Below, piece after piece: positions 3,209 to 64,000 of a DNA stretch of 64,000 bases. How positions within the stretch are numbered: position 1 is the stretch's first letter; each line of letters begins with the position of its first letter. The stretch spans positions 9,362,001 to 9,426,000 of the forward strand of contig OX597815.1 in assembly GCA_951406725.2 (NCBI GenBank), read 5' to 3'. Source of the DNA: Octopus vulgaris (taxonomy: Eukaryota). Position numbers and translations under genes: made by a program. The notes beneath the pieces were generated by a model. It worked only from the letters and a program-made list of their open reading frames with translations, ran no database searches and was not told the origin of the DNA.

Positions 3209-3620
3209 CGGCGAGCTGGCAGAAACGTTAGCGCGCCGGGCGAAATGCTTAGCGGTATTTCGTCTGTCTTCACATTCTGAGTTCAAATTCCGCCGAGGTC
3301 GACTTTGCCTTTCATCCTTTCGGGGTCGATAGATAAAGTACCAGTTACGCACTGGGGTCGATATAATCGACTTAATTCGTTTGTCTGTCCTTGTTTGTCC
3401 TCTCTGCGTTTAGCCCCTTGTGGGTAGTACAGAAATAGGTATTTCGTCTGCCGCTACGTTTGAGTTCAAATTCCGCCGAGGTCGACTTTGCCTTTCATCC
3501 TTTCGGGGTCGATAAATAAAGTACCAGTTACGCACTGGGGTCGATGTAATCGACTTAATCCCTTTGTCTGTCTTTGTCTGTCCCCTCTATGTTTAGCCTC
3601 TTGTGGGCAATAAAGAAATA
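3209..3620 (+). mobile_element. SINE family A, head plus two tandem body units
   Basis: Head GGCGAGCTGGCAGAAACGTTAGC, B-box-like GAGTTCAAATTCC and core GCCTTTCATCCTTTCGGGGTCGATAAA. The body repeats after the junction AGAAATA|GGTATTTCGTCTG at about 3437. Confidence 0.9.
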
Positions 3621-3626
3621 TATATA

Positions 3627-5747: not shown

Positions 5748-6134
5748 GTGGAGGCGCAATGGCCCAGTGGTTAGGGCAGCGAACTCGCGATCATAGGATC
5801 GCTGTTTCGATTCCCAGACCGGGCGTTGTGAGTGTTTATCGAGCGAAAACACCTAAAGCTCCACGAGGCTCCGTCAGGGGATGGTGGTGATCCCTGCTGT
5901 ACTCTTTCACCACAACTTTCTCTCACTCTTACTTCCTGTTTCTGTTGTACCTGTATTTCAAGGGGCCGGCCTTGTCACTCTCTGTGTCACGCTGAATATC
6001 CCCGAGAACTACGTTAAGGGTACACGTGTCTGTGGAGTGCTCAGCCACTTACACGTTAATTTCACGAGCAGGCTGTTCCGTTGATTCGGATCAACCGGAA
6101 CCCTCATCGTCGTAACCGACGAAGTGCTTCCATC
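5748..6134 (+). mobile_element. tRNA-derived SINE family B
   Basis: A-box-like TGGCCCAGTGG and B-box-like GTTTCGATTCC. Near-identical to copies at 43796 and 48618. Confidence 0.9.
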
Positions 6135-6312
6135 CATCTATTGTACACAGTCAGGTTAGAGCAGGAGGCAACAATTATGTTCACATATTTATATATTGTA
6201 TTTTAAAGTAGACTGGAATATAGTGGCAATGTTAAGAATTTTATATGTGGTATGCTACAGTAGAGTATGACATAACTATAGTGTAAGCATATTTACATTA
6301 GTTTAACAATAT

Positions 6313-9300
6313 TCTTTTCTACTCTAGGCATTTCTGGGGAGGGGGCCAGTTAATTAGATCGACCCAGTACGTAACTGGTACTTAATTTATCGACCCCCCA
6401 AAAGGATGAAAGGCAAAGTCGACCTCGGCGGAATCTGCATTCAGAACGTAAAGACAGACGAAATACCTATTTCTTTATTACCCACAAGGGGCTAAACACA
6501 GAGAGGACAAACAAGGACAGACAAACGGAATAAGTCGATTATATCGACCCCAGTGCGTATCTGGTACTTAACTTATCGACCCCGAAAGGATGAAAGGCAA
6601 AGTCGACCTTGGCGGAATCTGCATTCAGAACGTAAAGACAGACGAAATACCTATTTCTTTATTACCCACAAGGGGCTAAACACAGAGGGGACAAACAAGG
6701 ACAGACATAGGTATTAAGTCGATTACATCGACCCCAGTTCGTAACTGGTACTTAATTTATCGACCCCGAAAGGATGAAAGGCAAAGTCGACCTCGGCGGA
6801 ATCTGCATTCAGAACGTAAAGACAGACGAAATACCTATTTCTTTATTACCCACAAGGGGCTAAACACAGAGGGAACAAACAAGGACAGACATAGGTATTA
6901 AGTCGATTACATCGACCCCAGTTCGTAACTGGTACTTAATTTATCGACCCCCAAAAGGATGACAGGCAAAGTCGACCTCGGCGGAATCTGCATTCAGAAC
7001 GTAAAGACAGACGAAATACCTATTTCTTTATTACCCACAAGGGGCTAAACACAGAGGGAACAAACAAGGACAGACATAGGTATTAAGTCGATTACATCGA
7101 CCCCAGTTCGTAACTGGTACTTAATTTATCGACCCCGAAAGGATGAAAGGCAAAGTCGACCTCGGCGGAATCTGCATTCAGAACGTAAAGACAGACGAAA
7201 TACCTATTTCTTTATTACCCACAAGGGGCTAAACACAGAGGGAACAAACAAGGACAGACATAGGTATTAAGTCGATTACATCGACCCCAGTTCGTAACTG
7301 GTACTTAATTTATCGACCCCGAAAGGATGAAAGGCAAAGTCGACCTCGGCGGAATCTGCATTCAGAACGTAAAGACAGACGAAATACCTATTTCTTTATT
7401 ACCCACAAGGGGCTAAACACAGAGGGAACAAACAAGGACAGACATAGGTATTAAGTCGATTACATCGACCCCAGTTCGTAACTGGTACTTAATTTATCGA
7501 CCCCGAAAGGATGAAAGGCAAAGTCGACCTCGGCGGAATCTGCATTCAGAACGTAAAGACAGACGAAATACCTATTTCTTTATTACCCACAAGGGGCTAA
7601 ACACAGAGGGAACAAACAAGGACAGACATAGGTATTAAGTCGATTACATCGACCCCAGTTCGTAACTGGTACTTAATTTATCGACCCCGAAAGGATGAAA
7701 GGCAAAGTCGACCTCGGCGGAATCTGCATTCAGAACGTAAAGACAGACGAAATACCTATTTCTTTATTACCCACAAGGGGCTAAACACAGAGAGGACAAA
7801 CAAGGACAGACATAGGTATTAAGTCGATTACATCGACCCCAGTTCGTAACTGGTACTTAATTTATCGACCCCGAAAGGATGAAAGGCAAAGTCGACCTCG
7901 GCGGAATCTGCATTCAGAACGTAAAGACAGACGAAATACCTATTTCTTTATTACCCACAAGGGGCTAAACACAGAGGGGATAAACAAGGACAGACATAGG
8001 TATTAAGTCGATTACATCGACACCAGTGCGTAACTGGTACTTAATTTATCGACCCCGAAAGGATGAAAGGCAAAGTCGACCTCGGCGGAATCTGCATTCA
8101 GAACGTAAAGACAGACGAAATACCTATTTCTTTATTACCCACAAGGGGCTAAACACAGAGGGAGCAAACAAGGACAGACATAGGTATTAAGTCGATTACT
8201 AAGACCCCAGTGCGTATCTGGTACTTAATTTATCGACCCCGAAAGGATGAAAGGCAAAGTCGACCTCGGCGGAATCTGCATTCAGAACGTAAAGACAGAC
8301 GAAATACCTATTTCTTTATTACCCACAAGGGGCTAAACACAGAGGGAACAAACAAGGACAGACATAGGTATTAAGTCGATTACATCGACCCCAGTGCGTA
8401 TCTGGTACTTAATTTATCGACCCCGAAAGGATGAAAGGCAAAGTCGACCTCGGCGGAATCTGCATTCAGAACGTAAAGACAGACGAAATACCTATTTCTT
8501 TATTACCCACAAGGGGCTAAACACAGAGGGAGCAAACAAGGACAGACATAGGTATTAAGTCGATTACATCGACCCCAGTGCGTATCTGGTACTTAATTTA
8601 TCGACCCCGAAAGGATGAAAGGCAAAGTCGACCTCGGCGGAATCTGCATTCAGAACGTAAAGACAGACGAAATACCTATTTCTTTATTACCCACAAGGGG
8701 CTAAACACAGAGGGAGCAAACAAGGACAGACATAGGTATTAAGTCGATTACATCGACCCCAGTGCGTATCTGGTACTTAATTTATCGACCCCGAAAGGAT
8801 GAAAGGCAAAGTCGACCTCGGCGGAATCTGCATTCAGAACGTAAAGACAGACGAAATACCTATTTCTTTATTACCCACAAGGGGCTAAACACAGAGGGAA
8901 CAAACAAGGACAGACATAGGTATTAAGTCGATTACATCGACCCCAGTGCGTATCTGGTACTTAATTTATCGACCCCGAAAGGATGAAAGGCAAAGTCGAC
9001 CTCGGCGGAATCTGCATTCAGAACGTAAAGACAGACGAAATACCTATTTCTTTATTACCCACAAGGGGCTAAACACAGAGGGAGCAAACAAGGACAGACA
9101 TAGGTATTAAGTCGATTACATCGACCCCAGTGCGTATCTGGTACTTAATTTATCGACCCCGAAAGGATGAAAGGCAAAGTCGACCTCGGCGGAATCTGCA
9201 TTCAGAACGTAAAGACAGACGAAATACCTATTTCTTTATTACCCACAAGGGGCTAAACACAGAGGGAGCAAACAAGGACAGACATAGGTATTAAGTCGAT

Positions 9301-9808
9301 TACATCGACCCCAGTGCGTATCTGGTACTTAATTTATCGACCCCGAAAGGATGAAAGGCAAAGTCGACCTCGGCGGAATCTGCATTCAGAACGTAAAGAC
9401 AGACGAAATACCTATTTCTTTATTACCCACAAGGGGCTAAACACAGAGGGAGCAAACAAGGACAGACATAGGTATTAAGTCGATTACATCGACCCCAGTT
9501 CGTAACTGGTACTTAATTTATCGACCCCGAAAGGATGAAAGGCAAAGTCGACCTCGGCGGAATCTGCATTCAGAACGTAAAGACAGACGAAATACCTATT
9601 TCTTTATTACCCACAAGGGGCTAAACACAGAGAGGACAAACAAGGACAGACAAACGGAATAAGTCGATTATATCGACCCCAGTGCGTATCTGGTACTTAA
9701 TTTATCGACCCCGAAAGGATGAAAGGCAAAGTCGACCTCGGCGGAATTTGAACTCAGAACGTAGCGGCAGACGAAATACCGCTAAGCATTTCTGCCAGCT
9801 CACCGCCT
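6313..9808 (-). repeat. Tandem array of 18 x 184-bp SINE-A body units inside one SINE
   Basis: Junction GAAATACCTATTTC recurs with TACC at 6464, 6648, 6832, 7017, 7201 ... 9593. The single head is at 9777-9808. A flanking 17-bp direct repeat ATTAGTTTAACAATATT lies at about 6297 and 9814. Confidence 0.95.
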
Positions 9809-9854
9809 TAGATATTAGTTTAACAATATTGTTAACATAATTACAGATTAGTTT

Positions 9855-10273
9855 CTTTTACTCTTTTACTTGTTTCAGTCATTTGACTGCGGCCATGCTG
9901 GAGCACCGCCTTTTAGTCGATCAAATCGACCCCGGGACTTATTCTTTCGTAAGCCCAGTACTTATTCTATCGGATCTCTTTTGCCGAACCGCTAAGTGAC
10001 GGGGACGTAAACACACCAGCATCGGTTGTCAAGCAATGCTAGGGGGACAAACACAGACACACAAACACAGACACACAAACACACACACACATACACACAC
10101 ACATATATACAACAAGCTTCTTTCAGTTTCCGTCTACCAAATCCACTCAAAAGGCTTTGGTTGGCCCAAGGCTATAGCAGAAGACACTTGCCCAAGATGC
10201 CATGCAGTGGGACTGAACCCGCAACCATGTGGTTGGTTAGCAAGCTACTTACCACACAGCCACTCCTGCGCCT
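9855..10273 (-). mobile_element. tRNA-derived SINE family C with internal (CA)n/(TA)n
   Basis: On the minus strand, head AGGAGTGGCTGTGTGGTAAG...GGTTCAGTCCC and tail AAGTAAAAGAGTA. Many copies in the window. Confidence 0.9.
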
Positions 10274-33194: not shown

Positions 33195-33477
33195 TATTTC
33201 TTTATTACTCACAAGGGGCTAAACATAGAGGGGACAAACAGGGACAGGCAAATGGATTAAGTCGATTACATCGACCCTAGTGCGTAACTGGTACTTAATT
33301 TATCGACCCCGAAAGGATGAAAGGCAAAGTCGACCTCAGCGGAATTTGAACTCGGAACGTAACGGCAGACGAAATACGGCTACGCATTTCGCCCGGCGTG
33401 CCAACGGTTCGAAATGCGTAGCCGTATTTCGTCTGCCGTTACGTTCTGAGTTCAAATTCCGCTGAGGTCGACTTTGC
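33195..33477 (-). mobile_element. SINE family A with 5' inverted duplication
   Basis: TSD CTGGATAATTAATACC at 33179-33194 and 33478-33493. 33411-33479 is the reverse complement of 33322-33390. Confidence 0.88.
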
Positions 33478-33839
33478 CTGGATAATTAATACCTTCGTAT
33501 GCACATTCTTAATGAGCATCTAAATGAAACCTGTAGTAGACGGATTAATGAAATTACTAAACAAAAGCAACTAAGGAGAAAAACAAAACTTGAGGACAAC
33601 ACCAACAATCTGCGCCACCTCATTTGATGGTTAACCACAATAACAAAAATATAAGCGAAATAATGAGTTCATGTCTCACCAATTACATCTTATGCACACA
33701 AAAAAATAAATAAAGCCCTGTGACAGCTCTTTATGCCAAGCTCTTGGGGGGGGAAAGCTAATTACTCTAAAAATCGAACTCAAGACACTGAGCAAGAAAT
33801 TTTGTTATCGTAGAAAAATTTTCCAGTGCGCAGGTATAA

Positions 33840-62769: not shown

Positions 62770-64000
62770 TGTGAAGCCTTTCAACGGCACTTCGCCCGAC
62801 TGTTCGAGACAACTGGTGGGTCAGGACGCAGAGTATACTTTAGCGCCTACCTGCATGTCCTACCACGACTCTCGGCAAGAGAGGCAGAGTGTTACGAAAG
62901 ACCCATCACAGCCGCAGACGTACGGGATGCGACAGCCGGCTGCGCAGGAGACATGTCACCAGGCTTGGACGGCTTGCCCTACGAGTTTTATTGTCATGTG
63001 CCAGACTTGTTTGGAAGCGTCTTGGCAGCAATCTTCTGCAACTGGCAGGAAAACGGGAGTATCCCTAGTTTTGTGAGCCAAGGAGCGGTGGTACTTCTAA
63101 AGAAAGATCCAAGAAGGGAACGTCATGAATAACTTCAGGCTCGACGCATATTTGAAGAGTTTGGCCAAGGTACTGGCCGAAAGGTTCTCGCTTGTCATCG
63201 AGAAACTGGTCGACAAGACGCAAACATGCGCCGTGCCGGGCGGGAGTATCCATGAAAACTTCCATCTGATGCGCTACATCATAGAATAGTAGTTAAGGAA
63301 CCTGGCATGGGTGGAGTGCTGATCAAATTAGATCAATCGAAAGCTTTCGATAGGGTCGACCAACGTGACTTAGAGGCTGTCTTTAGAGTGGCTGGTTTCT
63401 GTCCCGTCTTCCGCGGTTGGATCGCTGCCTTATGCAGCGGCATCCGCTCGGTAGTTCGCGTAAATAGTCATCTATCCAGACCATTTAACATCACGCGTTC
63501 GGTTCGTCAAGGACGCCCCCTCTTGTCGCTTCTGTACGTAATGACTCTAGAACCACTACTGCGGAAGCTGGCGACGCTGAGAGGCATCCCGCGAGAACTG
63601 GGATGCGTGAGGAGGGTGCCTGCTTACGCGTACGACGTCACTGTCAGAGTGTGGAGCCACAGGCATATCGACCTGGTCGGCGAGACACTAAAAGGATACG
63701 AAGCTGTAACGGGAGCAAAAGTTAACTCGGTAAAGTCAGTGGGCATGCGGCTCGACACCTGGAGAAGTAAACCCATGTCATCCCATGTCTCCATCGTGGG
63801 ACACTGGACCGACGGACAGGTTAAATTTCTCATGGTCTAGTTCGGGCTAGACCTCCAAATGGAGAAGATCTGGGACGAGATAACGAGTAGGATGGCCACT
63901 CTCACCCAGCAATGGGCTGAGAGGAAGCTATTCCTAAAAGGTCGGTCGGGGGTGGCGAACGCGTACATCGCATCTGTCATCGATTACCGTCTGACAGTCG
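62770..64000 (+). pseudogene. Tx1/L1-clade LINE reverse transcriptase, disrupted, running off the window
   Basis: [46 protein letters not shown] and AYAYDVT (from YADD), with frameshifts and stops. Confidence 0.92.

What the first reader, a model, noticed from the sequence alone, without database searches (positions are those of the whole stretch)
6297..9830. Self-nested SINE satellite: 18 x 184-bp units inside one TSD-flanked SINE
Seen: one head (9777-9808), 18 headless units, then a terminal partial unit with a different tail (6313-6360), all between one 17-bp direct repeat. Every unit junction falls on the GGTA motif. All units except the head-proximal segment share the variant GAATCTGCATTC. 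Variants are blocked: CAGTTCGTAAC in the left units and CAGTGCGTATC in most right units. The first and last units uniquely share AAACGGAATAAGTCGATTATATC. Inference: one SINE subfamily inserted into the head of another, then expanded by unequal exchange or iterative/rolling reverse transcription. A Pol III transcript from the single head could be a multimeric structured RNA, as the units lack TTTT on the sense strand except in one variant.
Basis: partly seen in the sequence, partly recalled or inferred. Interest (0 to 1): 0.75.

Follow-up and report, generated by a model that had tools for sequence, protein, structure and literature searches.

The report
Self-inserting SINE swollen into local satellite
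This is a real 19-unit array of a very common short jumping element; copies of this family land at one spot inside each other's front end tens of thousands of times in this genome, and this array likely began as such a pair and then likely grew by ordinary DNA duplication, not by a circular RNA.

Summary
The array is real: one head, 18 units of 184 bp with the A-type tail, one terminal unit with the B-type tail, all inside a 17-bp target-site duplication. The junction is not special to this locus. The exact junction occurs 34,787 times in the genome. Lone copies with this tail sit at genomic GGTAT sites, and GGTAT also lies in the family's own head. At 148 'double-head' places a full copy sits in a head or older junction with a duplicated target, which shows self-insertion directly. 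Most family multimers are 2-4 unrelated units. This long array is different: a B-box-destroying variant is present in 18 of its 19 units and at only one other place in 2.8 Gb. Its units are mosaics of three founder copies. That fits local unequal exchange and argues against rolling or iterative reverse transcription. Open points: why heads are hit far more often than GGTAT alone predicts, how the second head is avoided, copy number in reads, and transcription. SINE satellites are known; self-targeting through the tail was not found in the papers searched.

The parts
6297..6313 (.). 3' copy of the 17-bp target-site duplication; directly follows the B-type tail
   Evidence: exact, only two copies in the window
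6314..6467 (-). terminal headless B-tailed unit (unit 19); likely the body of the host SINE; carries the private B-box variant
6468..6651 (-). unit 18: 5' part like the B unit, 3' part like unit 1 (shares a private base at unit position 92); the expected first crossover product
6652..9596 (-). units 2-17: B-like 5' part joined to the 3' part of a second, dispersed A subfamily; variants in blocks; mean 1.6% apart; four-T run in unit 16
9597..9780 (-). unit 1: A-type body with the only intact B box
9781..9809 (-). tRNA-like head with A-box-like motif; 20 bp deleted between two short repeats, leaving an A-B spacing of 45 nt (64 in a window monomer)
   Evidence: box labels from recalled consensus
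9814..9830 (.). 5' copy of the 17-bp target-site duplication

Best explanation
This is a tandem array of a tRNA-type SINE that likely began when an A-tailed copy retrotransposed into the GGTAT site in the head of an older B-tailed copy and then likely grew to 19 units by local unequal exchange or slippage in the DNA. Shown: A-tailed copies of one subtype insert at GGTAT; that motif lies in the family's own head and is recreated at every junction; full self-insertions with duplicated targets exist; this array's units carry variants private to the locus. Inferred: the SINE RNA runs on past its tail into GGUAU and pairs with the nicked target to prime reverse transcription; the new DNA is joined at its 5' end through homology with the host head, so that usually one head remains; a second A donor later replaced the 3' half of one internal unit, by RNA-templated replacement or gene conversion. 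The array itself most likely has no function.
For: Junction: 34,787 exact matches against 44,309 for a head motif; 36 of 98 A-type ends in 1.4 Mb of unselected sequence are junctions. Target: of 100 listed ends, 34 non-junction ends continue GGTA and 29 of those GGTAT (counted by hand); of 21 such ends examined, 10 had an exact duplication and 9 of these hold GGT in both copies. Self-insertion: 148 double-head matches; of 30 loci read, 19 lie in a host head and 11 in an earlier junction, and 11 match a downstream junction over 14-16 bp, several with host-specific letters. Seeds are mixed: 95 haplotypes among 96 chains, no linkage in A|B chains; the downstream B unit has more CpG decay (0.275 vs 0.185, p=0.03) and more other changes (p=0.002) than the upstream A unit, n=25. 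Double-head inserts match single-head first units in age and subfamily (p=0.64). Local growth: variant private (18 of 19 genomic matches); distance between units rises with spacing (rho 0.33); unselected chains have 2-4 units (29, 6, 1).
Against: GGTAT alone does not explain the excess: only 77 of 2,092 GGTAT sites are heads or junctions, and at non-SINE sites the match does not extend past five bases (12 of 29 and 6 of 12, against 35% and 43% background). Double heads are a small minority (2 of 108 chains flagged; one more seen), so the seamless route is inferred. The head follows the first unit, not the last (rho 0.57 vs 0.07), which whole-multimer copying also predicts. In A|A chains the two units do not differ in age (p=0.16) and share diagnostic alleles above chance (p=0.002). 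Some chains start inside the first unit without a head (12 of 108 flagged, at least 2 alignment artefacts). The partner LINE was not found. Copy number was not confirmed from reads.
Confidence: 0.7

Rival explanations
1. The seed was a dimer or trimer copied whole from a read-through RNA of an earlier multimer (a dimeric SINE, as Alu is), and only then expanded locally.
For: Head goes with the first unit; units lack strong terminators; some chains begin inside unit 1 without a head; A|A units are of equal age and partly linked.
Against: 95 of 96 chains have different two-unit haplotypes and A|B chains show no linkage; B units are older than their upstream A units; double-head inserts come from the same pool as single-head first units.
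Confidence: 0.15
2. The junction forms at the RNA level: the reverse transcriptase jumps from the 5' end of a cleaved SINE RNA onto the tail of another, giving mixed multimers that insert in one step; local expansion follows.
For: Explains one head, mixed units and a fixed site, which lies at the loop of the head's long hairpin (fold).
Against: Does not explain double heads with duplicated targets or the age gap in A|B pairs; no RNA end was observed.
Confidence: 0.07
3. The 18 units were laid down by rolling or iterative reverse transcription of a 184-nt circular or multimeric RNA.
For: Uniform unit length and fixed junction; 11 of 30 double-head inserts sit in an earlier junction, so repeated insertion does occur in the family.
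Against: The variant shared by units 2-19 is private to the locus; units are recombinant mosaics in blocks and the last unit has another tail; no ribozyme or unusual fold.
Confidence: 0.04
4. The long array is an assembly expansion of a short one.
For: Several neighbours are identical (units 12-15; units 3, 4, 6, 7); read depth could not confirm the number.
Against: 11 distinct unit sequences among 18, in ordered blocks with an intermediate unit; chromosome-scale assembly (227 contigs for 2.8 Gb).
Confidence: 0.04

Closest known systems
SINE-derived satellites (sSat) of squamates, Vassetzky et al. 2023, PMC10702118 (part 1 of 5, passages and Discussion read)
   Same: Tandem repeats of part of a SINE with longer terminal units, 70-290 nt units, homogenised locally; unequal recombination is proposed.
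   Different: There the unit is an internal portion that varies among short loci. Here the unit runs from one fixed head position to the exact natural 3' end, and the seed is a retrotransposition into the family's own head.
TSD-(SINE)n-TSD arrays of the blood clam Scapharca broughtonii, Martelossi et al. 2024, PMC11481361 (section 15 and passages read)
   Same: One complete head, repeated headless units, one outer duplication; 4-15 units; a mollusc.
   Different: Their internal units are cut at both head and tail and the last unit has the full tail, as an internal duplication would give. Here internal tails are complete and the last unit has a different subfamily tail; no self-targeting is reported there in the passages read.
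SINEU-3 with Tx1-Mar in crocodilians, Kojima 2015, PMC4494074 (passages read)
   Same: A SINE with a preferred site inside another repeat, stacking in tandem by sequential insertion.
   Different: The target is another element (Mariner-N4) chosen by a Tx1 endonuclease and tandem copies sandwich a duplication. Here the target is the SINE's own head, most junctions are seamless, and no LINE was found at the site.
Tail-directed target choice of RTE-related SINEs, Nishiyama and Ohshima 2018, PMC6007223 (passages and section 18 read; author names recalled)
   Same: The first bases of the duplication follow the RNA's 3' terminal sequence; different tails give different targets.
   Different: They report one or two bases in animals. 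Here it is five, and the matching sequence is part of the element's own head.

Membership tests
tRNA-derived SINE | Pol III A and B boxes in a tRNA-like head | tested here: inconclusive
   Motifs fit the recalled consensus and spacing; ARAGORN found no tRNA and Rfam nothing; no promoter test.
tRNA-derived SINE | Short, non-coding, dispersed at high copy with target-site duplications and 5' truncations | tested here: met
   44,309 exact head motifs; 161 elements in 1.4 Mb; duplications of 10-21 bp.
tRNA-derived SINE | 3' tail shared with a partner LINE | not tested
Deu/Nin-domain SINEs | Central conserved Deu or Nin domain | not testable with these tools
   Resemblance is recalled only.
SINE-derived satellite (sSat) | At least four tandem middle units from part of a SINE, with extended terminal unit(s) | tested here: met
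   17 middle units, head at one end, tail at the other; criterion from PMC10702118.
SINE-derived satellite (sSat) | Local homogenisation of units | tested here: met
   Units 2-17 differ by 1.6% against about 11% between loci; private shared variants.
Retrozyme or circular-RNA retroelement | Self-cleaving ribozyme in each monomer | tested here: not met
   No Rfam match at E<=5 in 8800-9900; no hammerhead core on either strand. Unknown ribozyme classes are not excluded.
Tx1-mobilised target-specific SINE | A LINE family inserting at the same site | tested here: inconclusive
   0 of 30 loci showed a non-SINE insert starting at the site; 78 of 100 atypical upstream contexts were slipped SINE tails and one other flank recurred 3 times. 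Patterns were narrow.

The most novel reading that the evidence does not exclude
The family is a self-guiding retroposon: copies that already sit in a junction make RNAs whose run-on is a long guide complementary to every family head, so they home into older copies, overwrite the host's head and recreate the target. This positive feedback would explain the roughly 50-fold excess of head insertions over GGTAT alone and would mass-produce seeds for satellites such as this one.
Probability: 0.4. Interest if true: 0.7.

Novelty: new variant of a known kind. Interest (0 to 1): 0.45.

Why it matters
It links two repeat classes by a traceable route: retrotransposition makes tens of thousands of same-phase dimers, and DNA exchange swells a few into satellites. 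If the run-on sequence guides the insertion, it is a natural case of RNA-directed site choice by a LINE enzyme working on a passenger RNA, which can be tested by changing five to fifteen bases in a standard retrotransposition reporter. The locus is a compact record of three founders and their crossovers, useful for measuring unequal exchange between individuals. The array itself shows no sign of function.

Tried and rejected
Rfam scan, hammerhead core scan and folding of one and two units, linear and circular, gave nothing above shuffles. Read depth for copy number failed: family contigs swamp the private positions, and contig depth is no copy number. Missing cover of the left flank in runs X2, X3, X4, X6 and X11 was not taken as absence. 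A 57-nt contig in run X11 carries the three private bases, but that run's RNA label is a guess, so it is no evidence of transcription. A LINE was sought at the junction site and at a second head site; none was identified. The stretch upstream of L001 is not a LINE end. A hexamer tail repeat and early termination at three T were considered; three-T runs also lie inside the body, so they cannot be reliable stops (sequence). Progressive loss of double heads was tested and not supported. A genome-wide census of what follows the second A subfamily was not obtained; only local counts exist (17 of 18 followed by GGT, GATA or a junction). The 2015 octopus genome paper and its supplement could not be read and may describe this family. 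A look-up of earlier findings by sequence and near this place returned nothing.

Full report
Observation. The array lies on the minus strand. From 9809 a 29-bp head leads into 18 units with the A-type tail (17 of 184 bp, one of 185 bp) and a final 154-bp unit with the B-type tail; a 17-bp direct repeat, found only twice in the window, encloses it (chance about 3e-7). All 18 junctions are at the same base. The genome is 2.8 Gb in 227 contigs. That it is an octopus is my recollection of the repeats and the wording of earlier notes, not a tool result.

The junction belongs to the family. The exact 22-letter junction occurs 34,787 times, against 44,309 for a head motif of similar length. In 1.4 Mb taken at fixed, unselected positions, 36 of 98 A-type ends are junctions, 7 join a second site in the A-box region and 55 end in other DNA. 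Of the 53 non-first units listed, most headless ones follow an A tail at the exact junction. Chains there have 2, 3 or 4 units (29, 6, 1), so 19 units is far outside what independent insertions give.

Why this site. Copies with one tail subtype end where a genomic GGTAT begins. Among 100 listed ends, six mutated junctions starting with GGTA were set aside; 34 others continue GGTA and 29 of these GGTAT (counted by hand). The motif is in the target: of 21 such ends examined, 10 had an exact duplication, 9 with GGT in both copies, 10 had none and one was an artefact. Beyond five bases there is no excess over background. Other tails choose other starts, and both B tails and a second A subtype join the head at the second site (1,335 matches, about 45 of 100 listed rows being SINE tails). 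This parallels the tail-to-target correlation of RTE-related SINEs, where pairing of RNA and nicked DNA is proposed (PMC6007223, section 18). One dispersed subfamily, the donor of units 2-17, carries a body stretch that pairs 12 of 14 bases with the tail plus the first six bases after it, against 8 of 14 in unit 1; this hints that the RNA or single strand runs past the tail.

Self-insertion is seen directly. A pattern for site plus new head gave 148 matches, some within local head arrays. Of 30 loci read (two overlap), 19 sit in a host head and 11 in an earlier junction; 11 match a downstream junction over 14-16 bp, in several cases with letters specific to the host. The first 11 letters match by construction, so only the longer matches count. 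These inserts have the same age and subfamily mix as first units of single-head chains (27 vs 94 units, p=0.64), which suggests one process with two ways of joining the 5' end and argues against slow loss of the extra head. In single-head chains the neighbours are mostly unrelated: median distance 8.4% against 10.9% between loci, with 12 of 48 A|A pairs sharing two or more rare variants against 1.1% between loci; 95 haplotypes among 96 chains; downstream B units older than upstream A units (n=25). Many of these loci were selected by exact patterns and come from the start of one chromosome, which biases them towards young copies.

What does not fit cleanly. Only 77 of 2,092 GGTAT sites are heads or junctions, yet 36 of 49 ends that continue GGT are junctions; allowing a quarter for local duplication leaves an excess of roughly 50-fold in odds. 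Five bases cannot explain this. Longer pairing from junction-bearing source copies, a site-specific endonuclease, open chromatin at Pol III promoters or copying of whole multimers could. The head tracks the first unit, A|A units are equal in age and partly linked, and some chains start inside unit 1; these keep whole-multimer copying alive. Earlier notes on this genome describe Tx1 LINEs that target a SINE head. I found no recurrent LINE at this site, and one note's wording suggests that those concern another SINE; the partner here is unknown.

How this array grew. Three substitutions that destroy the B box are in units 2-19 and at one other place in the genome, an old copy with a third tail type. 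A base at unit position 92 is shared by units 1, 3-9 and 18 and by none of 191 other A units. Unit 18 is therefore the B unit's 5' part joined to unit 1's 3' part, the product expected from a misaligned exchange in a head-A-B dimer. Units 2-17 carry the 3' part of a second, dispersed subfamily (25 of 191 A units), so a third founder entered, by RNA-templated replacement at a junction or by gene conversion; the order of events is inferred. Distance between units rises with spacing (rho 0.33 for units 2-17). Rolling copying of one RNA would give uniform units with one tail and a variant seen elsewhere; none holds. No ribozyme or unusual fold was found. The single head keeps a tRNA-like A-B spacing and the first four-T run comes after 2,856 nt, so a long transcript is possible but unshown. 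Reads did not settle copy number; run X10 holds the left duplication joined to the B tail, and X11 holds the private bases.

Comparison with print. SINE-derived satellites are described in squamates (PMC10702118), arrays with one head and one outer duplication in a clam (PMC11481361), and a SINE stacking at a preferred site in another repeat in crocodilians (PMC4494074, passages). PMC4758252, PMC4824008 and PMC8967140 were read as passages for family names only. Nine searches found no account of a SINE that targets its own head through its run-on tail, nor of this family's multimers; the library lacks most subscription papers, the 2015 octopus genome paper and repeat databases.

Verdict. The locus is a new member of a known kind, a SINE-derived satellite grown by local DNA exchange. 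The family behaviour that seeds it is a new variant of known tail-directed targeting and carries most of the interest. Overall 0.45.

Noticed in passing
window 3210-3625 (+): Two-unit copy of the same family with the same junction; the units are unrelated (9.8% apart).
   Followed up: yes
window 33195-33479: Copy with an inverted 5' part inside a 16-17-bp duplication that begins at GGTAT; looks like a twin-priming inversion.
   Followed up: partly
window 63256-63837 (+): Reverse-transcriptase fragment (PF00078) of a large LINE family with many open frames of about 1,160 aa; Tx1-like by recollection; its 3' end was not seen.
   Followed up: partly
window 5749-6130: Another very high-copy repeat just left of the array (depth); not identified.
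   Followed up: no
window about 10160-10260 (-): Head of a second SINE family that resembles CORE SINEs by recollection.
   Followed up: no
G000 C10:17996023-17996504, C14:84691111-84691343, C5:87874187-87875489; L228: Arrays of the 64-67-bp head segment, grown from double-head insertions: a second kind of satellite from the same process.
   Followed up: no
genome-wide: 2,230 matches with an atypical upstream context; 78 of 100 listed are junctions with one extra 6-nt repeat at the tail end, as slippage at the start of reverse transcription would give. The repeat is the reverse complement of part of the target.
   Followed up: partly
L315 (G000 C2:63596169): The same 20-bp head deletion as in this array occurs in an unrelated double-head insert, so it recurs or marks a small subfamily.
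   Followed up: no
L314 and three rows: A recurring non-SINE flank directly upstream of the target motif; possibly another element ending at this site.
   Followed up: no
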